Virus record (IMG/VR): IMGVR_UViG_3300002835_000131
Location: 54,177-74,176 of that record
From: an uncultured virus (IMG/VR IMGVR_UViG_3300002835_000131)
Lineage: Duplodnaviria; Heunggongvirae; Uroviricota; Caudoviricetes
DNA: 20,000 nucleotides
Direction: 5' to 3' (one strand)
Made by a program: the position numbers and the translations under genes
Notes under the pieces: model-generated
Databases searched by the model: none
What the model saw: only the letters and a program-made list of their open reading frames with translations
Told to the model about the DNA's origin: nothing
Part shown: one piece after another, positions 5,253 through 20,000 of the stretch
How positions within the stretch are numbered: the stretch's first letter is position 1
Layout: the number at the start of each line of letters is the position of its first letter

Positions 5253-5253
5253 T

Positions 5254-5478
5254 ATGGCAAATATACCTGTTAATACAACCGGAATAGTAACTACAACATC
5301 AATCACTGGTTCATACGCTGGCTTTACAGTAGTATCAGGATCAGCTACATTCACTGGTATAAAAGATTTTAATGGATCTCCATTAACAACTCCTTGGGTT
5401 GTACCCGCTGGATTCACTGTTCCTATTTATGTAACTAGTGCTTCTTTATCATCAGGAGCAGTATTATTTTACAATTAA
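5254..5478 (+). CDS. Small Ser/Thr/Gly/Val-rich protein, possible capsid decoration protein (74 aa)
   Basis: Tightly packed in the operon. Beta-strand-like composition, almost uncharged, with TGS, SGS and SAS motifs. The function is an inference. Confidence 0.75.
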   Translation: MANIPVNTTGIVTTTSITGSYAGFTVVSGSATFTGIKDFNGSPLTTPWVVPAGFTVPIYVTSASLSSGAVLFYN

Positions 5479-5491
5479 TAACTCATTATAA

Positions 5492-6829
5492 ATGAAAACA
5501 TTACAAGAACAATACATCCTTATTAAAGAAGGAAAAGGAAACAAAGATCATTTCTTAAAACAAGCAAGAATTTTATTTCCAAATTATATTAATCAATATT
5601 CTGATTATAATACAACTATAAGTGTACTTAAATCAAAAAGTATTTTAAGTGAAGGTATTGGTGGTGTAATTAGTCACAAACCATCATCATCTTGGTTAGA
5701 AATTTTTAGAGAAAATACAAGTAATGAGGCAGTAGATATGACTTCAGCTTCTGATGGTCCCTTTGGGCAGGCTGTAGGTATGATAAAGCGTAATGGAGGT
5801 GCTAAATTATTAAATGATAAAAACATCACTAGAGCTATTGATTTATTTAATGCTCTTAAATCAGGAGAACTTAAAAAAGAAGATCTTGATATGATTATAA
5901 TGGCTGATGGAAAGAAATTCACTGAAACTGAAATATTTACACAAGATATAAAACCTCTTTTAAATACAAATGAAGGTGATGTATTAGGTACTTCACATAG
6001 TGATTTATCATTTGGCTCTAAAGTTAAAGTTGGTGATAAAGCTATGATTGGTGATGATAAAGTAGAAATTACTTTAGTAGATAAAGTAGATGGCAAAATT
6101 AAACAAATTAAAGGCAAGACAGAAGATGGTAGAGAGTTATTTGTAACTAAACCAATGTTGTTAAGACCAGTTAAAGAAGAAACATTATCAGAAGTCATTG
6201 GTGTTCCAAATAGAAAACTATATGGTGATTATGATGAGTTTAAAAAACCATCTAAACAAGTTAAAAAAGATTTAGCTGATCAATATAATACTGAAGATAA
6301 GAAAAATATTGATAATGTTTATGGTACATCTTTCTTAAATGGCTACTATGCTGAAATGAAAGATCCTAAAAACAAAACTAAAACAGTTGATGAGTTAAAA
6401 CAAATTGTACTTAAAAACATGGTTAAAGACATAAACTATTATGCTAAAAATGCTATGTTTGGAACTAAAGGAGTAGGATTTAAAACTGAAAAATTAACAA
6501 TTGCACCTAAAGGTAAATATAAGTCAAGCGGATATGGTGATTTACCTAAAGCTAAAACTATTAAAGAAGGTATTCATGACCGAGATATATTATCAAGACC
6601 TTCTTCAAACCCAGATGTAACACCATTAAAGCGATCACCTGAAGAGTTAGGTAAAGAGGCAGATAATAGATCTGAAAACATGTTGTTAATGAAATACCAA
6701 AAGCAAATTAATGATCGTAATATAACAGATGATGAATTAAGAGATATATTAAGTGGTCAAGGTGTTAAGGGATTTGGAGGAAGAAAAAATGCAATTGAAA
6801 AAATTATAAGTAATAGAAATACAAATTAA
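5492..6829 (+). CDS. Hypothetical Lys-rich multi-module head protein (445 aa)
   Basis: Long ORF immediately upstream of the prohead protease. Contains LQE, IKE, LSE, LSE and IKE motifs and an SH3/KOW-like stretch (KVKVGDKAMIGDDKVEITLVD). Confidence 0.82.
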   Translation: MKTLQEQYILIKEGKGNKDHFLKQARILFPNYINQYSDYNTTISVLKSKSILSEGIGGVISHKPSSSWLEIFRENTSNEAVDMTSASDGPFGQAVGMIKRNGGAKLLNDKNITRAIDLFNALKSGELKKEDLDMIIMADGKKFTETEIFTQDIKPLLNTNEGDVLGTSHSDLSFGSKVKVGDKAMIGDDKVEITLVDKVDGKIKQIKGKTEDGRELFVTKPMLLRPVKEETLSEVIGVPNRKLYGDYDEFKKPSKQVKKDLADQYNTEDKKNIDNVYGTSFLNGYYAEMKDPKNKTKTVDELKQIVLKNMVKDINYYAKNAMFGTKGVGFKTEKLTIAPKGKYKSSGYGDLPKAKTIKEGIHDRDILSRPSSNPDVTPLKRSPEELGKEADNRSENMLLMKYQKQINDRNITDDELRDILSGQGVKGFGGRKNAIEKIISNRNTN

Positions 6830-6835
6830 CGTAAT

Positions 6836-7441
6836 ATGAGACAAGTATTAATTGAAACACAATTATTTTCTCCTAAAGCTGTTAGGTTAACTGAAGGAAC
6901 TAATCCTGGAGGTAACATATTAGTAGAAGGTGTGTTAGCTACTGTCGAAGTAAAAAACGGTAATGGTAGATATTACGCTAAAGAATTATGGGAACGTGAA
7001 ATGGATCGCTACATGGAATCAGTTCGAGAAAACAGAGCATTAGGTGAATTAGACCACCCAGATTCTTCAATTATTAACTTAAAAAATGTTTCACATAATA
7101 TTAAAAAATGCTGGTGGAATGGAGATAATGTAATGGGTTTAATTGAAATTTTACCTACTCCATCTGGTAACATCTTAAAAGCATTAATTGAAAGTGGTAT
7201 TACAGTAGGTGTATCATCAAGAGGAATGGGTTCGTTAGAACAAAAAGGTAATGTAATGGAAGTACAAGATGACTTTGAATTACTATGTTGGGATTTTGTT
7301 TCAACACCTTCTAATCCTGGTTCATGGATGCAACCAACCAACTTAAACGAATCATATACTCCAGGTACAAATCAATACGGTAAAATTAATTCAATTATTA
7401 CTGATATTCTATGTGCTAATGGATCATGTCCGTTATTCTAA
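6836..7441 (+). CDS. gp21: Prohead core protease (T4 gp21-like)
   Basis: Motifs KNGNGRYY, GELDHP (catalytic His), GVSSRGMGS (catalytic Ser) and WDFVSTPS. Confidence 0.95.
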   Translation: MRQVLIETQLFSPKAVRLTEGTNPGGNILVEGVLATVEVKNGNGRYYAKELWEREMDRYMESVRENRALGELDHPDSSIINLKNVSHNIKKCWWNGDNVMGLIEILPTPSGNILKALIESGITVGVSSRGMGSLEQKGNVMEVQDDFELLCWDFVSTPSNPGSWMQPTNLNESYTPGTNQYGKINSIITDILCANGSCPLF

Positions 7442-7442
7442 C

Positions 7443-8036
7443 ATGAAAAATTTATTTCTAGTAATATTAGTTTGCCTATCAACAGTAGTTTTTGGACAAA
7501 CTAAATTAAGAGATAGTGTTAACTATCAAACTCCTAACTTTCGTATTGTATATTCTGAAATTTTAGAACAACCTAAATGGGTTACTTATACTGTTAAATG
7601 TCCTACAGGTACCGCTTCTAGAGCAGGTATGGAATTCTACACAGACAAAAACATTAAAACATCTGATAACGAAGATTATGTTAATAATGAGTGGGACAAA
7701 GGACATATTGCTCCTGCTGCTTCATTTAACTGTACTAAAGAAATGTTATACTCAACATTTACCTATATTAATTCAGCAATGCAACAACAATCACTTAATC
7801 GTGGTCCTTGGAAAGCATTAGAAATATGGGAACGTGAACAAGCAAAAACAACTACTGTATCAGTATATGTTAGATTAGATTACGATAAAGTACCTAAACG
7901 TGTACCTACAAACGCGGCAATACCTAAAGGATTCTATAAAGAATTAAAAGTAGGTAACACTAAGTATTGTTATTATTTTCTTAACATTGCCCCTACATCA
8001 AAAGACTTAAACACGTTTAAGTGTAATTGTAAATAA
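7443..8036 (+). CDS. Exported DNA/RNA non-specific endonuclease (Serratia NucA/EndoG-type beta-beta-alpha-metal) with signal peptide
   Basis: WDKGHIAPA matches the DRGH active-site motif; YINSAMQQQSLNRGPWKALE matches the metal-binding Asn helix. The start at 7443, one base after the protease stop, gives MKNLFLVILVCLSTVVFG|Q, a Sec-type signal peptide. Confidence 0.88.
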   Translation: MKNLFLVILVCLSTVVFGQTKLRDSVNYQTPNFRIVYSEILEQPKWVTYTVKCPTGTASRAGMEFYTDKNIKTSDNEDYVNNEWDKGHIAPAASFNCTKEMLYSTFTYINSAMQQQSLNRGPWKALEIWEREQAKTTTVSVYVRLDYDKVPKRVPTNAAIPKGFYKELKVGNTKYCYYFLNIAPTSKDLNTFKCNCK

Positions 8037-8041
8037 AACAT

Positions 8042-8070
8042 GGCTCTTCCAAAAGAAGAGCTTTCTCTTT
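8042..8070 (+). terminator. Intrinsic terminator after the nuclease gene
   Basis: Stem GCTCTTC (8043-8049), loop CAAAA, stem GAAGAGC (8055-8061), followed by TTTCTCTTT. Confidence 0.7.
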
Positions 8071-8100
8071 ACACTTCTGTGTGTTTTAGATAATCTGGAC

Positions 8101-8207
8101 ATATGTATATTAGAATATACTGCCCGCAATCGCATTTGCAGTATCTATAAATAACAATTCTATTACACTTTAAATAAGTGTATTTCCCAAACAAAATTTT
8201 AGGACAA
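8101..8207 (+). promoter_or_regulatory. Promoter-like motif ATATGTATA plus structured leader of the scaffold-capsid operon
   Basis: ATATGTATA at 8101-8109; hairpin ATACTGC (8117-8123)/GCAGTAT (8138-8144); TATAAATA at 8146-8153; hairpin TACACTT (8164-8170)/AAGTGTA (8176-8182). Confidence 0.5.
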
Positions 8208-9266
8208 ATGAGTAAAAACAGAGATTTGCTTAAAGAAGCAATCGAAGACGCTAAAGTTGTTAAAGAAACAGCAATAGCAAGCGCAAAAGCAGCACTTGAA
8301 GAACACTTTACTCCACAATTAAAATCTATGCTATCAGCTAAACTTGCAGAAATGGAAGAAATGGATGTTGAAGAAGCAGAGATGGATGATATGGAAGAAA
8401 TGTATTCTAAAAAAGAAGAAAACTTAATGGGCTACAAAGAAGTTAAAGAAGAAGAAGATCTAATCAACAACCCAAAAGGTCCAACAGCACATGGTAATGT
8501 AGCTGAAGAAGAATTAGATGAACTTAATCTTGACGAATTATTAGCTGAATTAGAAGCAGACATGAAAGACGAAAACATGCATGCTGAAGACGACGAAATG
8601 AAAAAAGAAGAATTAAACGAAGCAGAAGGTGAAGAAGAAGTTGAAACTGAAGAAGAAATCAACATTGAAGACATGACTGAAGAAGAGTTAAAATCATTCA
8701 TTGAAGACGTAATTAAAGACATGGTTGAATCTGGCGAATTAGAAGCTGGTGAAGGCATGGAAGGTGAAGAAGGCGAAGAAATGGAAAGTGAAGAAGAAGA
8801 AGTTTCAATTGATGAAATTTTAGCTGAAATCGCATTAGACGAAGCTAAGAAAAAAGGTGACAAAGAAGACAAGAAAGACAAAGAAGAAATGACTAAACTT
8901 AAAAAAGAGTTAGAAGAAGCTATGTCAACTATTGCTACTATGAGAACTGACATCAATGAAGTTAATTTGTTAAATGCGAAATTACTTTACACTAACAAAA
9001 TTTTCAAAGCTAAAAACTTAACCGAGTCACAAAAAGTAAAGGTTTTAAATGCATTTGATAAAGCATCAACAGTAAAAGAAACTAAATTAGTATTCGAAAC
9101 ATTATCAGAAGGTTTAAAAGAAACTTCTAAATCACATGTTAATGAATCATTGAAAACTAGTTTAGCATCTAAAACAACAGGTATCATGCCATCGGCAAGA
9201 AAACCTATTGTAGAAGTTAATGACACATTCAAAAGAATGCAAAAAATAGCAGGAATTATTAAATAA
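8208..9266 (+). CDS. Prohead scaffolding protein (T4 gp22-like position and composition)
   Basis: Extremely Glu/Asp-rich coiled-coil protein directly upstream of the major capsid gene, ending in RMQKIAGIIK. ATG 8208 (MSKNRDLL) is preferred over GTG 8178, which lies inside a hairpin. Confidence 0.85.
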   Translation: MSKNRDLLKEAIEDAKVVKETAIASAKAALEEHFTPQLKSMLSAKLAEMEEMDVEEAEMDDMEEMYSKKEENLMGYKEVKEEEDLINNPKGPTAHGNVAEEELDELNLDELLAELEADMKDENMHAEDDEMKKEELNEAEGEEEVETEEEINIEDMTEEELKSFIEDVIKDMVESGELEAGEGMEGEEGEEMESEEEEVSIDEILAEIALDEAKKKGDKEDKKDKEEMTKLKKELEEAMSTIATMRTDINEVNLLNAKLLYTNKIFKAKNLTESQKVKVLNAFDKASTVKETKLVFETLSEGLKETSKSHVNESLKTSLASKTTGIMPSARKPIVEVNDTFKRMQKIAGIIK

Positions 9267-9294
9267 AACAATTTAAAAAAAAATTTTAAAAAAA

Positions 9295-10971
9295 ATGAGC
9301 ACAATTCAATCATTATTAGAATCAGCTAGTCCTTGGAAATCACTCCAAAGCGATGCAGCTAAATTGTCTTCTAAATGGAACAAAACGGGTCTATTAGAAG
9401 GCTTAACAAATGTAGAGGCAAACAACATGTCTTTATTATTAGAAAACCAAGCTAAGCAATTAGTTATGGAACAATCAGATACAGGTGGAGGTTCATCAGC
9501 AGGTTCATTCTCTGTTGGTCAATCAGAAAACTGGGCTGGTATTGCTTTACCTTTAGTACGTAAAGTATTTGCTCAAATTGCAGCAAAAGAATTTGTTTCA
9601 GTTCAACCAATGTCAATGCCTTCAGGTCTTGTGTTCTTCTTAGACTTCCAATACGGAACAGCTAAAGATCCATTTGCAGTAGGTAGTTCATTGTATGGTA
9701 ACAGAAATGCAACAGGTGAATTCCCGTTTGCAACTCCAGCACCATCAGGTGGTTTATACGGAACAGGTCGTTTCACTTACTCTACCAACCAATTCTCATC
9801 ATCGGCAATCACAATTGCAACTGGTTCACTTATCGTTTCAGGTACGTTAGCTACAACTAACTTTGATTCAGATTACTCAGCTTCAGTTGCTGCAGGTCAA
9901 ATCAAAGCAATCACATTAGTAACTGCTTCTACAAACATCCCTTCATTTGATATGGATGCTGTTAGAGGTTTCTTAATTTTATCAGGTTCAGCTATTACTG
10001 CTGCTAATAACTTACAACAGTTTACTACATTTGATTACACAAACAACACTATTACATTCTTTGTGAGTGCTTCTTCAGCTACAATTGCTAACTCAGGTGC
10101 TTATACAATTTTGTATAACAAAGCTACTCAAATGAGCCCGTATAACGTAGGTGATTTTGAAGATTCGTCATCATTCGCAGTTCCAAATGCTCAAGATAAC
10201 TCATCTATCGTTATTCCTGAGATTAATGTTAAAATGCAATCACAAGCCATCACTGCTAAAACTAAAAAATTGAAAGCAGTATGGACACCTGAATTCTCAC
10301 AAGATTTAGCTGCTTACCAAAACATTGATGCTGAAGCTGAAGTAACAAACATCATGTCTGAGTACATTTCAATGGAAATTGATCTTGAAATCTTAGATAT
10401 GTTGATCGAAGATGCTGCTGCGGGTACTGAGTACTGGTCAACAGTTAACAACAACGTTTACAACCCAGCTACAGCTACTTTCTCAACAGCTGGTTCAGCG
10501 TTCTACAACACACAAGGCCAATGGTTCCAAACTTTAGGAACTAAAATCCAAAAATTAAGCAACAAAATTCACCAATTAACTTTAAGAGGTGGTGCTAACT
10601 TCATCGTTACATCTCCAACTGTAGCTACAGTATTAGAATCAATCCCAGGATTTGCTTCTAACAACAATGGTGATGCTGCTCAAATGGAATACGCTTTCGG
10701 TGTACAAAAAGCAGGTCAATTAAATGGCCGTTACACAGTTTACAAAAACCCTTACATGACTGAAAATATCATGTTATTAGGTTACAGAGGTTCACAATTC
10801 TTAGAAGCTGGTGCTGTATTTGCTCCATATGTTCCATTAATTATGACTCCACTTGTGTACGATCCAGATACATTTACTCCACGTAAAGGTTTATTAACTC
10901 GTTACGCTAAGAAAATGTTAAGACCAGAATTTTATGGTAAGATCTATATCCAAGGATTAAATACTATTTAA
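9295..10971 (+). CDS. gp23: Major capsid protein (T4 gp23-like)
   Basis: Motifs LLLENQ, ALPLVRKVF, VSVQPMSMPSGLVFFL, AKTKKLKAVWTPEFSQDL, FAPYVPL and DPDTFTPRKGLLTRY. Shift toward TTC/TAC/AAC/ATC codons, as in highly expressed genes. Confidence 0.97.
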   Translation: MSTIQSLLESASPWKSLQSDAAKLSSKWNKTGLLEGLTNVEANNMSLLLENQAKQLVMEQSDTGGGSSAGSFSVGQSENWAGIALPLVRKVFAQIAAKEFVSVQPMSMPSGLVFFLDFQYGTAKDPFAVGSSLYGNRNATGEFPFATPAPSGGLYGTGRFTYSTNQFSSSAITIATGSLIVSGTLATTNFDSDYSASVAAGQIKAITLVTASTNIPSFDMDAVRGFLILSGSAITAANNLQQFTTFDYTNNTITFFVSASSATIANSGAYTILYNKATQMSPYNVGDFEDSSSFAVPNAQDNSSIVIPEINVKMQSQAITAKTKKLKAVWTPEFSQDLAAYQNIDAEAEVTNIMSEYISMEIDLEILDMLIEDAAAGTEYWSTVNNNVYNPATATFSTAGSAFYNTQGQWFQTLGTKIQKLSNKIHQLTLRGGANFIVTSPTVATVLESIPGFASNNNGDAAQMEYAFGVQKAGQLNGRYTVYKNPYMTENIMLLGYRGSQFLEAGAVFAPYVPLIMTPLVYDPDTFTPRKGLLTRYAKKMLRPEFYGKIYIQGLNTI

Positions 10972-10990
10972 TTCTAAATTAATAGAATAA

Positions 10991-11023
10991 AAAGAAGGGA
11001 CTCGCATTGCGAGTCCTTTTTTT
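10991..11023 (+). terminator. Intrinsic (possibly bidirectional) terminator after the major capsid gene
   Basis: Stem GGACTCGC (10998-11005), loop ATT, stem GCGAGTCC (11009-11016), then T7. An A-rich tract precedes the stem. Confidence 0.9.
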
Positions 11024-11027
11024 GTCT

Positions 11028-11036
11028 ATATGTATT
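11028..11036 (+). promoter_or_regulatory. Promoter-like variant ATATGTATT
   Basis: Same variant as at 8101, again located just downstream of a terminator. Confidence 0.45.
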
Positions 11037-11053
11037 GAAAACTAATAAGTTTT

Positions 11054-11212
11054 ATGAGTGGAAATATTGCTAAAATACCGCTTATTATCAATTTGAATAT
11101 TAATATACACAACTATATTATCTCATATTTACCCGCTGTATTAGACGGGCTAATCAACAAATCAACAATTTTATTCACTAAACGACTGTATTATGAGTTC
11201 AAATCATCATGA
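11054..11212 (+). CDS. Possible small ORF (52 aa) overlapping the phoH start
   Basis: ATG 11054 to TGA 11212 encodes MSGNIAKIPLIINLNINIHNYIISYLPAVLDGLINKSTILFTKRLYYEFKSS. It starts 26 nt after the start of the ATATGTAT motif. No recognisable homology. Confidence 0.3.
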   Translation: MSGNIAKIPLIINLNINIHNYIISYLPAVLDGLINKSTILFTKRLYYEFKSS

Positions 11213-11906
11213 GGACGAGATCTTCAAAGAAAAACGTAAACCTAAAACTCCTATTAAATTTAAAATTCAATTAAACGAAGAACAGAAGCAAGCAAAAGAA
11301 AAAATTTTAAATAATACAGTTACATTATTAGCTGGTTCAGCAGGTTCAGGTAAAACCTTATTAGCATGTCAGATAGCATTAGAAAAGCTATTTATGAAAG
11401 AAGTAGAAAAAGTAATTATTACTAGACCTACAGTGTCAAAAGAAGAAATTGGTTTTTTACCTGGTGATTTAAGAGAAAAAATGGATCCTTGGGTTCAACC
11501 AATTTATCAAAATATGTTTTTACTATATGATAAAGTTGCTATAGAAAAACATATAGCCGAAGGTAATATAGAAATTGTACCTGTATCATTTATGCGTGGT
11601 AGAACATTTGTTAACTCAATTGTTATTGTAGATGAAGCTCAAAACGTAACCCATGAACAAATGGAAATGATTGTTACTCGTATTGGTATTGATTCTAAAA
11701 TGATAGTATGTGGTGATGATAATCAAGTAGATTTAAAAAATAAACGTGACTCTGGATTTAAATTTTTATACACAGCTGCGTCAAAAATTAAAAACTTGAT
11801 TGGAATTAAATTAACTACTAACCATAGAAATCCAATAGTTGAAGACTTAATTGAATTATATAATGATGCTTACGAAAGAGGCATGACCAATGTTAAAGTT
11901 AAGTAA
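11193..11906 (+). CDS. phoH: PhoH-family ATPase
   Basis: GSAGSGKT (Walker A), IITRP, IGFLPGDLREKMDPW, FMRGRTF, IVDEAQN, GDDNQVD and HR motifs. Confidence 0.96.
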   Translation: MSSNHHEDEIFKEKRKPKTPIKFKIQLNEEQKQAKEKILNNTVTLLAGSAGSGKTLLACQIALEKLFMKEVEKVIITRPTVSKEEIGFLPGDLREKMDPWVQPIYQNMFLLYDKVAIEKHIAEGNIEIVPVSFMRGRTFVNSIVIVDEAQNVTHEQMEMIVTRIGIDSKMIVCGDDNQVDLKNKRDSGFKFLYTAASKIKNLIGIKLTTNHRNPIVEDLIELYNDAYERGMTNVKVK

Positions 11907-11923
11907 GGAACCATATTTTTTTG

Positions 11924-11934
11924 ATATTTATAAT
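11924..11934 (+). promoter_or_regulatory. Putative late promoter motif ATATTTATAAT
   Basis: Third exact copy, starting 19 nt before ATG 11943. Confidence 0.6.
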
Positions 11935-11942
11935 TAAAAGGC

Positions 11943-12377
11943 ATGGCAACTTTCACTTCCCAAATATTTGAAATTTTAACATTAAATGGAGATAACGTAG
12001 GATCTTCTGTTACTAACACCATTAACAATGTTAATTTTGTAGATAACAGAATCCTTAGTATCCCTACTAGCTCAGTTACTACATTATTTTCAATGGATTC
12101 AGTACCAGGTGCTGGAACATTTGTAACAAGTAGTGTTCAGTATGTTAGAGTAACTAACAATTCAACTGTTACACCAATTAAATTAATTGTATCTTCTTCA
12201 ACAGAAGCTATGAGTTATTTAATTGCTACAGGTAGTTCATATATGATATCTACAAGTAAAATGACAGGAAGTGTAAGTGTTGGTACTGGTAGTTTTAATT
12301 TTAGTGATATTCAGTCAGTTAAAGCACAACCTTCATCAAGCGCAGCTTCAATAGAATATTACATTGTAACTATTTAA
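11943..12377 (+). CDS. Ser/Thr-rich putative virion structural protein (144 aa)
   Basis: Beta-rich composition with many TSS, TGS and SSS motifs. First gene of the neck operon. Confidence 0.8.
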   Translation: MATFTSQIFEILTLNGDNVGSSVTNTINNVNFVDNRILSIPTSSVTTLFSMDSVPGAGTFVTSSVQYVRVTNNSTVTPIKLIVSSSTEAMSYLIATGSSYMISTSKMTGSVSVGTGSFNFSDIQSVKAQPSSSAASIEYYIVTI

Positions 12378-12386
12378 TAAAATAAT

Positions 12387-13607
12387 ATGAATATACCTAT
12401 TTGGCCTGGTTCTAGTTCATTTGCTCAAGTATCAGCATCTTATTATAATACTCCTTCATCAGGAATTCCTCCTACTCCGTTTGGATTTTATGATAATGAG
12501 ACTCAATTTAAAACAGACGCTGATAGTGTAGCTATGTTTGTTACTCGTAGATTAGGATATCCTATTATGGATATTGAACTTCAAGATATTAACATATATG
12601 CTGCTTTTGAAGAAGCAGTTACTACATATGGAAATGAATTATATGCTTTTTTAACTAGAGATAATTATCTTACATTTGAAGGAGCTTCAACTTCTATTGA
12701 TGCTGATAATGCATTAATTACTCCTTCAATGGCTAATATTGTTAGATTATCTGAACAATATGGAGAAGAAGCAGGTTCAGGAGGTAACGTTACTTGGAGA
12801 AAAGGTAGATTAACTTTAATTCCAGGAGTACAAAGATATGATTTAAAAGCTTGGGCTGAGTCTCAAGGTATTGTAGGTGGAATTGAAATTAAAAGAGTAT
12901 TTTACCAACCACCTCCAGCTGTATCTCAAATGTTTGCTCCTTTCTTAGGAACAATGGCAGGAGGTTTAGGCGGAGTCCCAGCGGCTGGTGCTTATGGTTT
13001 AGGTATGGGTTATACAAATTATTTAATGATGCCTACAAGTTTTACAGCTCAAACTATTCAAGCTATTGAGATGCAAAACACTATAACCTTATCTAATTAT
13101 ACTTTTGAAATTACAAATAATGTAATCTCAGTGTTTCCAGTTCCTGGAACTGGATTTTTTAATGAAGAAATGGATAATAATTTAGATTACGGAATGTATT
13201 TAAATTTTGAATATGTTTCATTACAAGAAAGATTAGATTCAGCGTTTGGAGATGGTACAAATAAAATTACTAACACATCAAATGTACCTTATACTAATCC
13301 AAATTATAATGCTTTAAATTCAGTAGGTAGAAGTTGGATATATGAATACACTTTAGCATTAACTAAAGAAATATTAGGATATGTTAGAGGAAAATATAGT
13401 ACTGTTCCTATTCCTAATGCTGAAGTAACTTTAAATCAACAAGATTTATTATCTTCAGCTACAGCTACTAAAGATGCTTTAATTTTAAGATTAAGAGAAT
13501 ATTTTGATCAAACTTCACGTCAAGCATTGCTTGAAAGAAGAGCAGCTGAATCAGCAGCACGTGTAACAGAAATAAATCAAGTACCAATGGTAATTTATAT
13601 AGCATAA
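12387..13607 (+). CDS. Neck protein / head-tail adaptor (T4 gp13-like)
   Basis: RRLGYPIMDIELQD resembles the gp13 N-terminal motif; WIYEYTLALTKEILGYVRGKY...EVTLN and the terminal PMVIYIA fit the gp13 C-terminus. Confidence 0.82.
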   Translation: MNIPIWPGSSSFAQVSASYYNTPSSGIPPTPFGFYDNETQFKTDADSVAMFVTRRLGYPIMDIELQDINIYAAFEEAVTTYGNELYAFLTRDNYLTFEGASTSIDADNALITPSMANIVRLSEQYGEEAGSGGNVTWRKGRLTLIPGVQRYDLKAWAESQGIVGGIEIKRVFYQPPPAVSQMFAPFLGTMAGGLGGVPAAGAYGLGMGYTNYLMMPTSFTAQTIQAIEMQNTITLSNYTFEITNNVISVFPVPGTGFFNEEMDNNLDYGMYLNFEYVSLQERLDSAFGDGTNKITNTSNVPYTNPNYNALNSVGRSWIYEYTLALTKEILGYVRGKYSTVPIPNAEVTLNQQDLLSSATATKDALILRLREYFDQTSRQALLERRAAESAARVTEINQVPMVIYIA

Positions 13608-13608
13608 A

Positions 13609-14157
13609 ATGGCATTATTTGGAAGTATAAGAGATGTTTCAGCTTTAAGATTTATTAATAGAGAATTAATGGGTAATGTTATTACCCAACAAGTTGCTTA
13701 TTACAAATATAATCTAGGTCAAACTAGAGTTAATATGTATGGTGAAAATGTAGAGGGTAAATTTTATATTGGCCCAGTTCTATTAGATTGTTTACTTGAA
13801 AGAAATGATCAAGCATTCCCTACAAGTGATTTAGGTGTTGATTTAGTTTGGGGTATAAAAGTAGCATTTTTAAAAGATGATTTATTAAATAAAAATTATG
13901 ACTACAATATTGATACTGAGTTTTATGGAGCTAATTTAGTACCACAAGTAGGAGATATTATTTTATATCAAAATGGATATTTTGAAGTAGATAATGTAAT
14001 TTCAAACCAACAATTTGTAGGCAAAGATCCTGATTACCCATATGATGTAAATCCTTTAAATCCAGGATTACAAAACTTTGGTTGGGATCAATCAATTGTT
14101 TGTGATTGTCATTATGTACCACAAGATAGAGTAAACATAACTAAAGCAAGATTATAA
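13609..14157 (+). CDS. Neck protein / head closure (T4 gp14-like)
   Basis: Lies between the gp13-like and gp15-like genes. NMYGE and PQVGDIILYQNGYFEVDNV motifs are typical of head-closure proteins. Confidence 0.7.
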   Translation: MALFGSIRDVSALRFINRELMGNVITQQVAYYKYNLGQTRVNMYGENVEGKFYIGPVLLDCLLERNDQAFPTSDLGVDLVWGIKVAFLKDDLLNKNYDYNIDTEFYGANLVPQVGDIILYQNGYFEVDNVISNQQFVGKDPDYPYDVNPLNPGLQNFGWDQSIVCDCHYVPQDRVNITKARL

Positions 14158-15029
14158 TGGCTGGAAGAATACCTATACCTAAAACACAAAAAGAGATACT
14201 TGTAGATCAACAAGTACCTTTTGATGTTGAAAGAGGTAACCCTAATAAGTCTAATAATCCTAATAGAGCTACACAAACTTCTTTTAGAAATGATAATACT
14301 AAACCATTTAGTATTAGTCTTCAAGATATTGATGGAGCTATTATGTATTATTTTCAAAATGTTATTAAACCTTTTGTAGTGCAAAATGAAGAAAGAATAG
14401 AAGTTCCTGTTATATATGGTTCACCTGAAAAATGGAAATCATATCAAAAGGATGGTTATTATAGAGATGTAAACGGTGCTATTATGGCTCCACTTATTAT
14501 GTTTAAAAGAGATAGTATAGAAAAAAATAGGACTGTAGCTAATAAATTAGATGCTAATAGACCTAACAACTATACAGTAACAGAAAAACAATACTCTCCA
14601 AGTAATATATATAGTAATTTTAATGTTTTAACTAACAGAATACCAACTACTACATATTATGCTTCAGTAGTACCTGATTACTTAACATTAACTTATAGTT
14701 GTGTAGTATTTACTTACTATGTAGAACAATTAAATAAAATAGTAGAAGCAATTGAATATGCTTCAGATGCGTATTGGGGTAACCCAGAACAATTTCAATT
14801 CCAAACTCGTATTGATACATTTAATACAGTAACAGAATTACAAAATGACGCTGAACGATTAGTTAGAAGTACTTTTAATATTAAAGTATATGGTTATATA
14901 GTTCCAGAAGTATTACAAAAAGATTTAAACTCTATCAAGAAATTTTCAAGTAAGAGTAAAATAATTATAAATTTAGAATCAACAATAACAAACCCAACAA
15001 ACGAAATACAATATGGCCAGAATCAATAA
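14157..15029 (+). CDS. Tail completion / sheath stabiliser (T4 gp15-like)
   Basis: [19 protein letters not shown] and [10 protein letters not shown]...[10 protein letters not shown] resemble gp15-family motifs. Synteny 13-14-15. Confidence 0.75.
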
Positions 15030-18000
15030 CTCCATACCAAGAAACAATGTACGATTTTTAGATCAAGTATCTATAGCTTCTTTTGAAGTACCTACTTCAG
15101 GAGGTAGTAGTGGAATTGGTACATCTGGACTTTCAGGTTTATCAGGTCTTTCAGGTTTAAGTGGTACTGGCACCTCAGGTATTTCAGGCTTAAGTGGTAC
15201 TGGCACCTCAGGTATTTCAGGTTTATCAGGAACAGGTACATCAGGTATTTCAGGACTAAGTGGCGCTGGAACATCTGGTATAAGTGGTTTATCAGGAATA
15301 AATGGTACATCAGGACTTTCAGGTTTAGAAGGTTTATCAGGTTTAAGTGGTACTGGCACTTCAGGTTTATCAGGATTAAGTGGAACTGGCACCTCAGGAT
15401 TAAGCGGTTTATCAGGAACTAATGGTACCTCAGGTTTATCAGGTTTAGAAGGTATAAGTGGTTTATCTGGTTTAAGTGGTACAGGAACTTCAGGTCTAAG
15501 TGGTTTAAGTGGAACAGGAACTTCTGGTTTGAGCGGTCTTTCAGGAACTAATGGAACTTCAGGTCTTTCTGGTTTAGAAGGTTTATCAGGACTTTCAGGT
15601 CTTAGTGGTACTGGAACTTCAGGTTTATCTGGTTTGTCAGGAGCTGGTACATCAGGTCTAAGTGGTTTATCAGGAACTAATGGTACAAATGGTACCTCAG
15701 GACTCTCAGGTTTAGAAGGCTTAAGTGGTTTATCAGGCCTAAGTGGTACAGGTATATCAGGACTTTCAGGTCTTTCAGGTACTAATGGTACTAATGGTAC
15801 ATCTGGTCTTTCAGGCTTAGAAGGTACATCTGGTCTTTCAGGTCTTAGTGGTACTAGTACTTCAGGACTTTCAGGTTTATCAGGAACAAATGGTACATCC
15901 GGTCTTTCAGGTCTTGAAGGTACATCAGGTCTAAGTGGCATATTAGGTACATCAGGACTTTCAGGTTTAAGTGGTACTGGCACTTCTGGTTTAAGCGGTT
16001 TATCAGGTATAAACGGAATTTCAGGTTTATCAGGTTTAGAAGGTACATCAGGAATTTCTGGTCTTAGTGGAACAGGACTTTCAGGACTTTCAGGTCTTAG
16101 TGGTACTGGAACCTCAGGTTTATCTGGTCTTTCAGGAACTGGTTTATCAGGCTTATCAGGCTTATCAGGCTTATCAGGTTTATCTGGTTTAGAAGGTACA
16201 TCTGGTCTTTCAGGTCTTAGTGGAACTGGAACTTCAGGTATAAGTGGATTAAGTGGTACAATTGGTACATCAGGTATAAGTGGCTTAGAAGGTATAAGTG
16301 GTTTATCTGGTATAAGTGGTTTCTCAGGAACTAATGGTACCTCAGGACTTTCAGGTTTATCAGGAACAAATGGTACCTCAGGACTTTCAGGTTTAGAAGG
16401 TATATCTGGCCTAAGTGGATTAAGTGGTACTGGTACATCAGGTCTCTCAGGTTTATCAGGAACAAGTGGTACAAATGGTACTTCAGGTCTAAGTGGTTTA
16501 GAAGGCACAAGTGGTTTATCAGGCTTAAGTGGCACTGGAACTTCAGGTCTAAGTGGTTTATCCGGTACAAACGGAACTTCAGGTATTTCAGGTCTTGAAG
16601 GTACATCAGGTTTAAGTGGATTAAATGGTACATCAGGTTTATCAGGTTTAAGTGGTATATTAGGTACTTCAGGTTTATCTGGTTTATCAGGAACAAATGG
16701 AACAAATGGTACATCCGGTCTTTCAGGTCTTGAAGGTACATCAGGACTTTCAGGTTTATCAGGTACATTAGGAACTTCAGGTATAAGTGGTTTATCAGGT
16801 TTGTTAGGTCTAAATGGTGACTCAGGCATCTCAGGATTAAGTGGTATCTTAGGTACTTCAGGATTAAGTGGTATTTCAGGACTTTCAGGTACAAATGGTA
16901 CAAATGGAACTTCAGGAATATCAGGTTTAGAAGGTATTTCAGGTATAAATGGTATTTCAGGCATTTCAGGACTTTTAGGTAATTCAGGAATTTCTGGTTT
17001 AAGTGGTATTAATGGAATTTCAGGAATTTCAGGTTTAGAAGGCAATTCAGGTATTTCAGGTTTATCAGGTACTATAGGTATATCAGGTATATCAGGACTA
17101 AGTGGTATTAATGGTACAAATGGTACTTCAGGCATCTCAGGTTTAGAAGGAGCTTCAGGCATTTCAGGACTTTTAGGTAATTCAGGAATTTCTGGTTTAA
17201 GTGGTATTAATGGTACTTCAGGAATTTCAGGTTTAGAAGGTACTTCAGGTTTATTAGGTCAGTCAGGTATAAGTGGTTTATCAGGTACAAATGGTACAAA
17301 TGGTACTTCAGGAATTTCAGGTTTAGAAGGAGCTTCAGGTATATCTGGTTTAATTGGAAATTCAGGTATTTCAGGTTTAAATGGCACATCAGGTATTTCA
17401 GGATTAAGCGGTACAAATGGTACTATTGGAGATTCAGGTATTTCTGGTCTAAGTGGTACTTCAGGCCTATCAGGTATTTTAGGATTGTCTGGTATTTCAG
17501 GTTTATCAGGAATTTCAGGTCTAAACGGTGACTCAGGAATTTCAGGTTTAAGTGGTATAAGTGGTATTTTAGGATTAAATGGAGACTCAGGTCTTTCAGG
17601 ATTAAGCGGCTCATCAGGACTTTCAGGTTTATTAGGTACATCAGGTTTAAGCGGTATATCAGGTCTTTCAGGCATAGATGGAACTTCAGGACTTTCCGGT
17701 TTATCTGGTTTAAGTGGTATAAGTACATCAGGTATATCAGGACTTTCAGGTATGTCAGGTACCTCAGGTTTAAGCGGTTTATCAGGACTTTCTGGTATAG
17801 ATGGTATATCAGGTCTTTCAGGTACATCAGGTTTAAGTGGTCTTTTAGGTTTATCAGGTACAAGTGGTATTTCTGGTTTAAATGGCATCTCAGGCTTATC
17901 AGGTGACTCAGGACTTTCAGGTTTAAGCGGCACATCAGGTATAAGTGGTTTAAGTGGCACTTCAGGTTTATCAGGTATATCAGGTCTTTTAGGTATATCA

Positions 18001-20000
18001 GGTATAAGTGGCACTTCAGGCATCTCAGGACTTTCAGGTATATCTGGTTTATCAGGTATAAGTGGAGATTCAGGTCTCTCAGGTTTAAGTGGTACTTCAG
18101 GTATATCAGGTTTATCAGGTGAAAGTGGTTTATCAGGTTTATCAGGTACAAGCGGTATTTCAGGATTAAGTGGTACTTCAGGTATTTCAGGCTTATCAGG
18201 TATTTCAGGCTTAAGTGGCATTTCAGGTTTATCAGGTGAATCTGGTTTATCAGGACTTTTAGGTACATCAGGTCTTTCAGGCTTAAGTGGCATCTCAGGC
18301 TTATCAGGTACTTCAGGCTTATCAGGTACAAGTGGAATTTCAGGTTTAAGTGGTGAGTTAGGCTTATCAGGTCTTTCAGGCATATCAGGCATCTCTGGTT
18401 TATCAGGAACTTCAGGTCTATCAGGTGAATCAGGTTTATCAGGTTTAAGTGGTATTTCAGGATTAAGTGGTATATCAGGTATATCAGGTATAAGTGGTTT
18501 AAGCGGTATATCAGGTCTAAGTGGTACAAGTGGATTAAGTGGTACAAGTGGTACTTCAGGTTTAAGTGGAATATCAGGATTATCAGGTGAAAGTGGCTTA
18601 TCAGGACTTTCAGGCTTAAGTGGCACCTCAGGCTTATCAGGAATATCAGGTACATCTGGTTTAAGCGGCATCTCAGGTTTATCAGGCGAAAGTGGCTTAT
18701 CCGGTTTAAATGGCATAAGTGGATTAAGTGGTACTTCAGGTATCTCAGGTTTATCAGGTGAAAGTGGTTTATCAGGCTTAAGTGGCATCTCAGGAATTTC
18801 AGGATTAAGTGGTACATCAGGACTTTCAGGTATATCAGGCCTATCAGGTGAATCTGGTTTATCAGGACTTTCAGGTATAAGTGGATTAAGTGGTACTTCA
18901 GGTTTATCAGGAATATCTGGTTTAAGTGGTACTTCAGGTATATCAGGCCTAAATGGTGATTCAGGAATTTCAGGATTAAGTGGCACAAGTGGCATCTCAG
19001 GTTTAAGCGGAATTAGTGGTTTATCAGGCGAGTCAGGCATTTCTGGTTTAAGTGGTATTTCAGGTTTATCAGGTACAAGCGGTATTTCAGGTTTAAGCGG
19101 TGAATCAGGTTTATCTGGTTTAAGTGGTACTTCAGGTATTTCAGGCTTATCAGGCATCTCAGGATTATCAGGTATATCAGGCCTAAATGGTGACTCAGGT
19201 ATTTCAGGTTTAAGTGGTGTGAGTGGATTAAGTGGTACAAGTGGCATTTCTGGTTTAAGTGGAATATCAGGATTATCAGGCGAAAGTGGCTTATCAGGAC
19301 TTTCAGGTACAAGCGGAATTTCAGGTTTAAGCGGTGAATCAGGTTTATCTGGTTTAAGTGGGACTTCAGGTCTATCAGGTTTATCTGGTTTAAGTGGCAC
19401 TTCAGGTCTATCAGGTGAATCTGGTTTATCAGGTTTAAGTGGTATAAGTGGATTAAGTGGTACTTCAGGCATTTCAGGCTTATCAGGTACAAGCGGAATT
19501 TCAGGATTAAGTGGCACTTCAGGCTTAAGTGGTGAATCTGGTATTTCAGGTTTATCAGGAATATCAGGACTTTCAGGTATAAGTGGATTAAGCGGTGAAT
19601 CAGGTCTATCAGGACTAAGTGGCACTTCAGGTATTTCAGGACTTTCAGGTTTAAGTGGCATTTCAGGTTTAAGTGGTACATCAGGTATAAGTGGATTAAG
19701 CGGTACATCAGGTATCTCAGGCTTATCAGGTATTTCAGGTATAAGTGGTTTAAGTGGCATCTCAGGATTAAGCGGCGAGTCAGGAATATCAGGACTTTCA
19801 GGTACATCAGGTATCTCAGGCTTATCAGGTATTTCAGGTATAAGTGGTTTAAGTGGCATCTCAGGATTAAGCGGCGAGTCAGGAATATCAGGACTTTCAG
19901 GTACATCAGGTATCTCAGGCTTATCAGGTATTTCAGGTATAAGTGGTTTAAGTGGCATCTCAGGATTAAGCGGCGAGTCAGGAATATCAGGACTTTCAGG
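15013..20000 (+). CDS. Giant Gly-X-Ser collagen-like repeat protein, probable neck/tail fibre (partial, >1660 aa, open at window end; absent from the ORF track)
   Basis: ATG 15013 overlaps the gp15-like stop and gives [36 protein letters not shown], followed by [18 protein letters not shown] triplets. I found no in-frame stop to 20000. Same strand as the operon, and variation is concentrated at synonymous positions of this frame (Ser as TCA/TCT/AGT/AGC, Gly as GGT/GGA/GGC). Confidence 0.93.
15100..20000 (+). repeat. Degenerate 9-bp coding tandem repeat (GGN-NNN-TCA/AGT)
   Basis: Directly visible, for example ggt tta tca / ggt att tca / ggt tta agt repeated for about 4.9 kb. Confidence 0.97.
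19702..20000 (+). repeat. Perfect 99-bp tandem repeat, three full copies and possibly the start of a fourth
   Basis: Copies start at 19702, 19801 and 19900. The unit ggtacatcaggtatctcaggc...ggaatatcaggactttca encodes [33 protein letters not shown]. Confidence 0.93.

What the first reader, a model, noticed from the sequence alone, without database searches (positions are those of the whole stretch)
15013..20000. Unannotated giant proline-free, lysine-free Gly-X-Ser fibre protein
Seen: after a unique N-terminus of about 30 aa, the protein runs for more than 1600 residues as Gly-X-Y with X mostly Leu/Ile/Thr/Glu and Y overwhelmingly Ser. In the repeat I saw no Pro, Lys or Arg. The Gly register is maintained from 17731 to the window end (about 250 triplets). 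Established: collagen triple helices normally depend on Pro/Hyp or Lys-Asp/Glu pairs, but Riftia cuticle collagen is stabilised by glycosylated Thr in the Y position; Gly-X-X repeats can also form polyglycine-II bundles (snow-flea antifreeze protein, T-even gp38 adhesins). Inference: this is either a glyco-collagen needing Ser O-glycosylation or a very large PGII bundle. As a triple helix at about 0.29 nm per residue, the visible part alone would be roughly 0.5 micrometre. Its position after the neck genes suggests a very long neck or tail appendage.
Basis: partly seen in the sequence, partly recalled or inferred. Interest (0 to 1): 0.85.

Follow-up and report, generated by a model that had tools for sequence, protein, structure and literature searches.

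The report
Giant serine-rich collagen-like phage fibre
This is the first half of a gene for a very long, collagen-like fibre of a lake bacteriophage that lacks every amino acid known to stabilise collagen, and whose close relatives carry sugar-adding enzymes right beside the gene.

Summary
ORF 15013-19998 (+) is 1662 aa and open at the contig end. After a 30-aa N-terminus it is Gly-X-Y throughout: X is Leu/Ile/Thr, Y is 84% Ser. The repeat has no Pro, Lys or Arg. The last 252 triplets are unbroken from nt 17731.

The array is not an artefact, except perhaps its last ~70 nt. A second assembly matches at 99.98%, and there the gene runs to at least 3391 aa with eight CBM5/12 beads. A 95%-similar relative has a complete 3616-aa version ending in a Peptidase_S74 trimerisation chaperone.

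The gene follows gp13-like and gp15-like neck genes of an immuto-like T4-superfamily lake myophage. The same slot holds a giant Gly-X-Ser gene in 59 of 74 related contigs, and 54 of those 59 share an N-terminal RFLDQV anchor.

Glycosyltransferase or sulfotransferase genes follow the fibre gene in 8 of 9 readable relatives and in 0 of 4 collagen-less controls. None lies in this 74-kb contig.

Best reading: a trimeric, probably O-glycosylated, collagen-type virion fibre about 0.8 µm long. Its attachment site is unresolved. This is a new variant of known phage collagen, and this scan found the theme before on other DNA.

The parts
12387..13607 (+). gp13-like neck protein (406 aa)
   Evidence: phmmer against PDB: T4 gp13 9mkb_A6 E 1.4e-5 and 9lu4_D E 1.5e-5. 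PHROG 211 head-tail adaptor Ad2, E 4.1e-12.
13609..14157 (+). 182-aa ORF of unknown family, in the position of gp14
   Evidence: No Pfam or PHROG hit. The gp14 assignment rests on position only and is an inference.
14157..15029 (+). gp15-like tail terminator (290 aa); its stop overlaps the fibre start by 17 nt
   Evidence: AF2 model from a 22-sequence alignment, pLDDT 60.7. Foldseek PDB: 9mkb_AB E 7.4e-8, T4 gp15 4huh/4hud about 1e-6, then other tail terminators. 430 relatives in IMG/VR.
15013..15102 (+). N-terminal 30 aa of the fibre, with the conserved RFLDQV anchor motif at aa 14-19 (nt 15052-15069)
   Evidence: The motif RF[LIVM]D[QE]V is present in 54 of 59 collagen ORFs in this slot. It is also present in non-collagen fibres in the same slot: L014, L035, L049, L051, L081.
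15103..16542 (+). Segmented collagen-like region (aa 31-510): 13 runs of 4-22 triplets, mostly separated by Gly-X-Gly breaks
   Evidence: Register analysis. DNA periods of 33, 129 and other lengths at 69-80% match.
16546..17724 (+). Uninterrupted run of 131 Gly-X-Y triplets (aa 512-904)
17731..19998 (+). Uninterrupted run of 252 Gly-X-Y triplets (aa 907-1662), cut by the contig end
   Evidence: The run continues to 369 triplets in the near-identical record (L002).
19702..20000 (+). Perfect 99-bp x3.0 tandem repeat at the contig end; the last ~70 nt may be an assembly loop
   Evidence: TRF 100% match. L002 agrees up to 19930 and then differs. P0001 equals P0003 for aa 1-1639, with 4 differences in the last 23 aa.

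Best explanation
The window holds the 5' half, at most, of the gene for a giant homotrimeric virion fibre of an uncultured lake myophage. The phage belongs to the T4 superfamily, and its nearest cultured relative is Flavobacterium phage immuto.

Shown:
- The protein is a strict Gly-X-Ser array with a conserved N-terminal RFLDQV peptide.
- The gene sits directly after the gp13-like and gp15-like neck genes.
- The same gene in a 99.98% identical record reaches at least 3391 aa, with eight CBM5/12 modules strung along its distal third.
- A close relative's complete 3616-aa version ends in a Peptidase_S74 intramolecular chaperone.

Inferred:
- The short N-terminal peptide docks the fibre on the virion. 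The site, neck or tail terminator versus baseplate, is unresolved.
- A C-terminal trimerising domain brings three chains into register and nucleates a collagen-type triple helix that zips towards the N-terminus. The result would be a flexible thread of about 0.8 µm. It is kinked at Gly-X-Gly breaks in its proximal third and beaded with three-fold sets of carbohydrate-binding modules distally.
- The helix has no Pro, no Lys/Arg and almost no acidic partners. Its stability, and the masking of the Leu/Ile at X, most likely come from O-glycosylation of the Ser at Y by phage glycosyltransferases encoded just downstream in relatives.
- The fibre enlarges the capture radius of the virion and binds polysaccharide on the host or on particles.
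For: Gly periodicity is kept under nucleotide divergence, and Ser uses both codon families. Pfam Collagen E 1.1e-206. PHROG tail-fibre families down to E 1e-258.

The array is reproducible. L002/G002 is 99.98% identical over window 4157-19930. 24 of 24 listed lake or freshwater runs from 2016-2024 hold 75-92% of the sampled 31-mers. Logan contigs of 4 runs cover all 30 bins, and the listed array pieces of 226-606 nt show at most one difference.

Family evidence:
- 59 of 74 readable loci carry a Gly-X-Y ORF right after the gp15-like gene.
- In 53 distinct ORFs, Lys is <=0.2% and Arg <=0.6% in all, Pro is <=0.4% in 50, and Ser at Y is 50-98%.
- The anchor motif is in 54 of 59 and also in non-collagen fibres of the same slot.

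Trimer signature: Peptidase_S74 in G001 (E 9.4e-18; 9e-14; 2.3e-15). The same kind of C-terminus is visible by eye in L006, L022, L048 and L053. CBM_5_12 scores E 1.3e-25 in P0003, and segmentation finds eight ~50-aa beads.

Glycan genes downstream of closed collagen ORFs:
- L083: GT9-like plus GT4.
- L006: GT9-like plus GT2. L022: GT2 plus GT4 plus FkbM methyltransferase. L031, L053, L059: GT4. L048: sulfotransferase plus APS kinase plus cytidylyltransferase-like gene.
- L010/L011: GT4 found through L094.
- In L089, L095, L096 and L097 the two transferases lie between two collagen genes.
- Control: 0 of 4 collagen-less relatives have such genes in up to 10 kb.
Against: No structure evidence exists for a triple helix. 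The trimer prediction was not run by the tool.

Every known stabiliser is absent: Pro/Hyp and Lys-Asp/Glu bridges. One paper holds the latter to be general for collagen-like proteins, viral ones included (PMC11923368, passages read).

This phage's own 74-kb contig has no glycosyltransferase. That is 69 ORFs at E<=1e-4 and no tblastn match to the relatives' enzymes. Its C-terminus is unknown, because P0003 is still open at 3391 aa.

The linkage is not strict. L009 shows no glycan gene in three ORFs after its collagen gene. 10 of 16 relatives of the GT4 gene have no collagen ORF within 6 kb.

The GT9-like enzyme is not a TibC-type protein heptosyltransferase by NCBIfam, and the GT4 matches are generic.

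No contig of the four runs spans the array, so unit order rests on two assemblies that may not be independent. The cultured relative immuto has no collagen gene here, so there is no virion image or proteome.
Confidence: 0.62

Rival explanations
1. The array is not a triple helix. It would be an extended, mucin-like or serine-rich-repeat-like glycosylated thread, with single chains held stiff by dense O-glycans or simply disordered, tethering the distal binding modules.
For: Composition resembles flexible Gly-Ser linkers, especially in relatives with X = Ser/Thr and Y = 97-98% Ser (L025, L067). All known triple-helix stabilisers are absent. Glycosyltransferases are adjacent in relatives. GT4 enzymes include GtfA of serine-rich-repeat adhesins, but the match is weak and generic (TIGR02918 E 3.4e-6, far below cut-off).
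Against: A disordered linker gives no reason to keep Gly at every third residue. Yet Gly holds for 252 triplets here (369 in the near-identical record) and 1055-1056 in relatives, while the DNA units have drifted to 60% identity. Trimerising Peptidase_S74 C-termini directly follow the array in relatives.
Confidence: 0.17
2. The array is a polyglycine-II bundle of the snow-flea antifreeze or T-even gp38 kind.
For: Only the three-residue Gly period. A weak, below-threshold Atlas lead to Gp38-type proteins concerns the 197-aa protein encoded after the fibre in G001, not the fibre itself.
Against: There is one Gly per triplet, not two. 72% of X are Leu/Ile, which could not pack in a PGII sheet. 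Runs of 131-369 triplets have no turn-forming breaks. The features of PGII bundles are recalled from memory and were not tested against a model.
Confidence: 0.03
3. The array, or most of its length, is an assembly artefact of a much shorter repeat, or the frame is not coding.
For: The contig ends in the array with a perfect 99-bp x3 repeat. 35 of 59 related collagen ORFs run off their contig ends. No Logan contig spans the array, and many short-sided joints appear. Long antisense ORFs exist.
Against: Units are only 60-85% alike at DNA level, so short reads can order them. A second assembly agrees at 99.98% over 4.9 kb of array. Closed versions of 1800-3616 aa exist with in-frame N- and C-terminal domains. 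The antisense ORFs are (Pro-X-X)n shadows of the GGN period, and 68 of the 70 ORFs called in the first 54 kb of the contig are on the + strand.
Confidence: 0.03

Closest known systems
Phage collagen-like tail-fibre proteins: prophage EPclA-D of E. coli O157:H7 (PMC3368898, passages read) and Gly-X-Y ORFs of T4-like cyanophage P-SSM2 (PMC1079782, passages read)
   Same: A Gly-X-Y shaft lies inside a phage fibre protein. A non-collagen N-terminal attachment part and a C-terminal trimerisation domain flank it. The gene sits in the structural module of a tailed phage.
   Different: In EPclA, Pro fills about half of the X positions and many residues are charged. It is short, unglycosylated and melts at 42 C. 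Here Pro, Lys and Arg are absent, Y is 84% Ser and X is 72% Leu/Ile. The array is roughly 960 triplets long, and relatives carry adjacent transferases.
Glycosylated collagen-like exosporium proteins with a dedicated transferase: BclA3-SgtA of Clostridioides difficile (PMC7157674, abstract in search listing) and BclA of Bacillus (recalled)
   Same: A collagen-like repeat carries a hydroxy amino acid in the triplet, and a glycosyltransferase gene lies beside it. The glycan is thought to be part of the surface fibre.
   Different: Those are bacterial spore-surface hairs of a few hundred residues with Pro in the triplet (GPT type, recalled). Here the protein is a phage virion fibre ten times longer and Pro-free. 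Glycosylation is not shown, and the transferase genes are seen only in relatives.
Fibres with a C-terminal intramolecular chaperone (Peptidase_S74): endosialidase tailspikes and the T5 L-shaped tail fibre pb1 (recalled; reference list of PMC4621102)
   Same: The complete relative P0002 ends in PF13884. It carries the Ser-Asp-x-Arg-x-Lys stretch at the expected cleavage site (read; the motif's meaning is recalled).
   Different: Known examples chaperone triple beta-helix or beta-prism shafts, not a 970-triplet collagen-like shaft. The window's own C-terminus is missing.
T4 fibritin (wac) collar and whiskers (PMC12929629, passages read)
   Same: A trimeric fibre gene lies beside the neck genes gp13-gp15. 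A short N-terminal part does the docking, and a C-terminal domain nucleates folding.
   Different: Fibritin is an alpha-helical coiled coil of under 500 aa that binds gp13 domain III. Here the shaft is Gly-X-Y, is seven times longer and shows no sequence likeness. The docking site is unknown.

Membership tests
Collagen triple-helix repeat proteins (PF01391) | Gly at every third residue in long runs, and a Pfam hit over the cut-off | tested here: met
   Runs of 131 and 252 triplets. PF01391 scores 669 bits against a cut-off of 27.2.
Collagen triple-helix repeat proteins (PF01391) | Known stabilisers: Pro/Hyp in X/Y, or Lys-Asp/Glu interchain salt bridges | tested here: not met
   0 Pro, 0 Lys and 0 Arg in the repeat. 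Asp plus Glu make up 4.5% of X+Y.
Collagen triple-helix repeat proteins (PF01391) | Three chains actually form a triple helix | not testable with these tools
   The trimer prediction was not run by the tool. CD, melting or EM is needed.
Phage fibres with C-terminal intramolecular chaperone (Peptidase_S74, PF13884) | S74 domain at the C-terminus | tested here: inconclusive
   The window's gene, and its 99.98% twin P0003, are cut before the C-terminus. The domain is present in relative P0002 (60 bits).
Glyco-collagens with a dedicated transferase (BclA3-SgtA type) | Glycosyltransferase gene adjacent to the collagen-like gene | tested here: inconclusive
   None in this 74-kb contig, where the downstream DNA is missing. 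Present in relatives: 8 of 9 readable loci, against 0 of 4 controls.
Glyco-collagens with a dedicated transferase (BclA3-SgtA type) | Glycan on Ser/Thr of the repeat | not testable with these tools
   Needs mass spectrometry of the virion or of co-expressed protein.
TibC/Aah autotransporter heptosyltransferases (BAHT, TIGR04414), as partner enzyme | NCBIfam TIGR04414 hit for the GT9-like enzyme beside the fibre gene of relatives | tested here: not met
   L083 443 aa and L006 437 aa give only RfaQ-type hits, E 6e-5 and 1e-4, far below cut-off. There is no TIGR04414 hit at E<=0.01 and no PDB match.
T4 fibritin-type neck whiskers | Coiled-coil shaft and docking on gp13 | tested here: not met
   The shaft is Gly-X-Y, not heptads. 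Docking cannot be tested. Only the gene position next to gp13-like and gp15-like genes is shared.
Polyglycine-II bundles (snow-flea antifreeze, gp38 adhesins) | Gly-rich tripeptides with small residues, and short PGII strands joined by turns (features recalled) | tested here: not met
   There is one Gly per triplet, 72% of X are Leu/Ile, and runs of 131-252 triplets have no breaks.

The most novel reading that the evidence does not exclude
These lake phages make a micrometre-long triple helix from Gly-(Leu/Ile/Thr)-Ser triplets alone. Its stability would come not from proline or salt bridges but from Ser O-glycans added by phage transferases. That would be a third, purely glycan-based solution to collagen folding. 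The thread carries about 24 chitin/cellulose-type binding modules (8 beads x 3 chains). It would let the virion fish for hosts, or stick to polysaccharide particles where its hosts feed.
Probability: 0.2. Interest if true: 0.85.

Novelty: new variant of a known kind. Interest (0 to 1): 0.6.

Why it matters
Collagen biophysics holds that a stable triple helix needs imino acids, hydroxyproline or charge pairs. A 2025 survey proposed Lys-Asp/Glu clamps as a shared folding code, viral collagens included (PMC11923368, passages read).

Here a whole family of abundant lake-phage proteins keeps perfect Gly periodicity for hundreds to over a thousand triplets with none of these features. Either a new stabilising principle exists, with Ser glycosylation the obvious candidate, or the Gly-X-Y rule is being selected for another fold. 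Both alternatives can be tested with short recombinant fragments.

For phage biology, a fibre of about 0.8 µm is several times longer than a myophage tail. With repeated carbohydrate-binding beads it would change how encounter rates and particle attachment of freshwater phages are modelled.

Practically, such arrays are where assemblies of these phages break: 35 of 59 related ORFs run off their contigs.

Five literature searches found no paper describing this family. Earlier notes of this same scan describe the same theme on other DNA.

Tried and rejected
- Trimer prediction of aa 1300-1479 x3: the queue was full many times and one job was lost. The job was finally answered NOT FOLDED on likeness alone. 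There is no verdict, and it was not repeated in any form.
- AF2 of the ~120-aa N-terminal domain of distant relatives (alignment A2): pLDDT 43, unusable, and no fold search was made.
- Profile search with A2 over 1.84 billion proteins: 138 hits at E<=1e-3 and 23 at E<=1e-10, mostly short fragments. This says little.
- N-domain of L053 against immuto gp056, the fibre in the same position: E 0.52, no likeness.
- tblastn of the first 596 aa against 50,697 phage records: no match. This is expected with the low-complexity filter on and is not evidence of absence.
- phmmer of the 290-aa protein against PDB: chance-level rows only. The fold search was needed.
- The window's 445-aa ORF (5492-6829) gave a weak GT-D hit, E 0.0086 and below cut-off. 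PDB gave nothing and the Atlas gave no usable hit, so it is not counted as a transferase.
- Atlas search of the 197-aa protein encoded after the fibre in G001: scores 0.87-0.88 and TM under 0.5, with Gp38-type rows. This is a lead only.
- Internal globular parts of P0002 (167 and 235 aa): no Pfam family.
- Host: three MAG contigs hold relatives of the gp15-like gene, one of them binned as Microbacteriaceae. They are probably mis-binned phage contigs, so no host is inferred.
- Rfam on the window: nothing.
- Logan contigs do not span the array, and the short-sided joints (20-30 nt) are read as cross-matches among repeats or related phages.

Full report
**1. Observation**

The window is the last 20 kb of a single 74,176-bp virus record. 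ORF 15013-19998 (+) starts with ATG 17 nt before the stop of the upstream gene and has no stop before the contig ends. Its 1662 residues are G550 S465 L268 I137 T130 N42 E37 D11 A6 V4 R3 F3 M2 P2 Q2, with no Lys. The two Pro and three Arg all lie in the first 27 residues.

After the 30-aa N-terminus the chain is Gly-X-Y. 527 of 549 Gly-Gly spacings are 3. Up to aa 510 the register is broken every 4-22 triplets, mostly by Gly-X-Gly. Then 131 triplets (aa 512-904) and 252 triplets (aa 907-1662, from nt 17731) run unbroken. X is 47% Leu, 25% Ile and 22% Thr. Y is 84% Ser.

**2. Is it real?**

In the 252-triplet run the first two bases of every Gly codon are invariant, while the third base has 1.42 bits of entropy. 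The 27-nt units average 60% identity. Ser is written with both TCN (166) and AGY (77) codons. This is amino-acid-level conservation, not a freshly amplified DNA repeat.

The long antisense ORFs translate to (Pro-X-X)n and are shadows of the GGN period. An independent IMG/VR record (L002, record G002) is 99.98% identical to window 4157-19930 and then departs. The window's last 299 nt are a perfect 99-bp x3.0 repeat, so the final ~70 nt may be an assembler loop.

Twenty-four of 24 listed lake or freshwater metagenome runs from 2016-2024 hold 75-92% of the sampled 31-mers of window 12000-20000. Logan contigs of four of them cover all 30 bins. The listed array pieces, 226-606 nt long, show at most one difference. 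None spans the array. Local sequence is thus well supported. The order of units rests on two assemblies.

**3. The whole gene**

In G002 the same ORF is identical for aa 1-1639. It continues to at least 3391 aa and is still open at that contig's end. From aa 2014 it carries eight ~50-aa modules between collagen stretches, and these match CBM_5_12 (E 1.3e-25).

In record G001 the upstream gene is 95% identical and the fibre N-terminus is the same. There the ORF is complete at 3616 aa, with 970 triplets, two internal globular parts and a C-terminal Peptidase_S74 domain.

At 0.286 nm per residue (a recalled value), the collagenous residues give about 444 nm for the window's part and about 825-832 nm for the two longer proteins.

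**4. Context**

Upstream lie these genes:
- large terminase
- T4-type portal
- prohead protease
- a non-specific nuclease
- Gp23-type capsid protein
- PhoH

A gp13-like neck protein follows, then a 182-aa ORF of no family. The 290-aa protein gives an AF2 model of moderate confidence (pLDDT 60.7). That model matches the T4 gp15 tail terminator first (E 7.4e-8 to about 1e-6) and other tail terminators after it.

The nearest cultured phages by capsid protein are:
- Flavobacterium phage immuto (55%)
- Microcystis phage Mel-JY01 (48.5%)
- Rhodothermus phage RM378 (36%)

Immuto has no collagen gene at this locus. The other 54 kb of the contig hold replication and baseplate genes and five tRNAs, but no glycosyltransferase.

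**5. The family**

The gp15-like protein has 430 confirmed relatives in IMG/VR, of which 80 loci were kept. Of the 74 loci with at least 600 nt downstream, 59 have a Gly-X-Y ORF as the next gene. Of those 59:
- 35 run off their contig.
- 9 are cut by my 10-kb flank.
- 15 are closed, at 511-2919 aa.

Among the 15 loci without one, L009-L011 and L049 have a collagen ORF as the second gene.

In the 53 distinct ORF sequences, Lys is <=0.2% and Arg <=0.6% of X+Y in all. Pro is <=0.4% in 50; the exceptions are L022 at 1.3%, L023 at 2.8% and L036 at 5.7%. Ser at Y is 50-98%. X is Leu/Ile/Thr in the window's clade and Ser/Thr elsewhere. The longest unbroken runs are 1055-1056 triplets and are still open (L025, L067).

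54 of 59 begin with the RFLDQV-type peptide. The same peptide heads the non-collagen fibres that fill this slot in L014, L035, L049, L051 and L081, and those of L014 and L051 match YadA-head repeats. The DNA identity of close relatives to the window collapses about 340 nt into the gene.

A constant short N-terminus followed by a hypervariable shaft and swapped C-termini is the usual signature of a virion fibre with a fixed docking site and a changing receptor end.

**6. Glycan genes**

Nine loci have readable non-collagen ORFs after a closed collagen ORF. Eight of them carry glycan-modifying genes within four ORFs:
- L083: a GT9-like 443-aa protein (PF01075, E 1e-5) and a GT4 595-aa protein (PF00534, E 2.9e-18; phrog_2170, E 3.9e-43).
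- L006: GT9-like plus GT2.
- L022: GT2 plus GT4 plus an FkbM methyltransferase.
- L031, L053, L059: GT4.
- L048: a sulfotransferase, an APS kinase and a cytidylyltransferase-like gene.
- L010/L011: GT4, found through L094 on the same contig.

L009 shows none in three ORFs. L017 has only a 127-aa ORF before the locus ends.

In L089, L095, L096 and L097 the two transferases lie between two collagen genes. Four collagen-less relatives (L035, L037, L051, L081; 21 ORFs) have no such gene. In three of them (L035, L037, L051) the slot is followed within two or three ORFs by the tail sheath, and in L035 and L051 by the gp19 tube as well.

Against strict linkage, 10 of 16 relatives of the GT4 gene have no collagen ORF within 6 kb. 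The GT9-like enzyme gives no TIGR04414 (TibC/Aah) hit, only RfaQ-type hits far below cut-off, and no PDB match. The GT4 is generic. The acceptor is therefore inferred from neighbourhood only.

**7. Mechanism**

Shown: periodicity, composition, the conserved anchor, the position after the neck genes, CBM beads in the same gene, and an S74 end plus transferases in relatives.

Inferred: three chains are registered by a C-terminal trimerising domain and fold from C to N into a collagen-type helix. Gly-X-Gly breaks make the proximal third flexible. Ser O-glycans supply the stability that Pro and salt bridges give elsewhere, and they mask the Leu/Ile ridge. The distal beads bind polysaccharide.

The strict retention of Gly argues against a merely disordered linker. 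One Gly per triplet with bulky X, and no turns, argues against a polyglycine-II bundle. A trimer prediction could not be obtained. Where the fibre docks is open. T4 fibritin docks on gp13 domain III (PMC12929629, passages read), but nothing here shows the same.

**8. Comparison and novelty**

Collagen-like stretches in phage fibres are long known:
- Smith et al. 1998, seen only as a cited reference.
- P-SSM2 orf028, with Pro, Ser or Thr in X/Y (PMC1079782, passages).
- Pelagimyophages (PMC7029224, passages).
- EPclA, which has Pro at about half of X, many charges, is unglycosylated and melts at 42 C (PMC3368898, passages).

Glycosylated collagen-like fibres with a dedicated transferase are known from spores (BclA3-SgtA, PMC7157674, abstract in listing).

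What is new here is the combination: no Pro, Lys or Arg, Ser at Y, about 960-970 triplets, CBM beads, an S74 end and transferase neighbours, all in a widespread lake-phage lineage. My searches found no paper on it.

Earlier AI notes of this scan describe Gly-X-Ser phage fibres beside transferases in at least eight other genomes. Those notes gave me the TibC test, which came out negative for this lineage, and the BclA3 comparison.

**Verdict**

It is a real, truncated gene for a giant collagen-like virion fibre and a new variant of a known kind. The glyco-collagen reading is plausible but unproven.

Noticed in passing
G000:C1:8226-9302 (outside the window; L086 8226-9302): The phage has a tRNA cluster: Thr(TGT), Met, Ser(TGA), Gln(TTG) and Glu(TTC). 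tRNA-Ser(UGA) reads TCA, the commonest Ser codon of the array (288 of 465). tRNA-Thr(UGU) reads ACA, the commonest Thr codon. This may be a supply for translating the giant gene.
   Followed up: no
window 15063-17162 (-) and 17259-19958 (-): Long antisense ORFs of 699 and 899 aa translate to (Pro-X-X)n. They are shadow frames of the GGN codon period and could be mis-called as proline-rich genes.
   Followed up: yes
window 7413-8036 (+): A DNA/RNA non-specific endonuclease (PF01223, E 3.3e-23; phrog_14168) sits inside the head module, between the prohead protease and the putative scaffold gene.
   Followed up: no
L048 17540-20172: After its 2036-aa collagen gene, one relative carries a sulfotransferase, an APS kinase and a cytidylyltransferase-like gene instead of glycosyltransferases. 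This hints at sulfated modification of the fibre or its glycan.
   Followed up: no
L083 4432-4932 and 6328-7032 (P0002 aa 1421-1587 and 2053-2287): Two globular inserts lie in the complete 3616-aa relative and match no Pfam family. By eye the second resembles YadA-head repeats. Short fibres in the same slot of L014 and L051 do match YadA_head.
   Followed up: partly
L083 11025-11618: A conserved ~190-200-aa ORF directly follows the fibre gene in L083/L089, L006/L097, L095 and L096. It has no Pfam, PHROG or NCBIfam hit. The Atlas gives only weak leads to Gp38-type adhesins. It might be an adhesin or an assembly factor.
   Followed up: partly
G000:C1:29333-29791 and L022 8223-8663: A SegE-type GIY-YIG homing endonuclease lies next to the primase. 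In L022 this block follows the transferase cassette directly. In the window's contig it follows baseplate-side genes, so gene order differs between 97%-similar phages.
   Followed up: no
window 5492-6829 (+): A 445-aa ORF in the head module has a sub-threshold GT-D hit (E 0.0086). PDB and the Atlas gave nothing, so it stays unassigned.
   Followed up: yes
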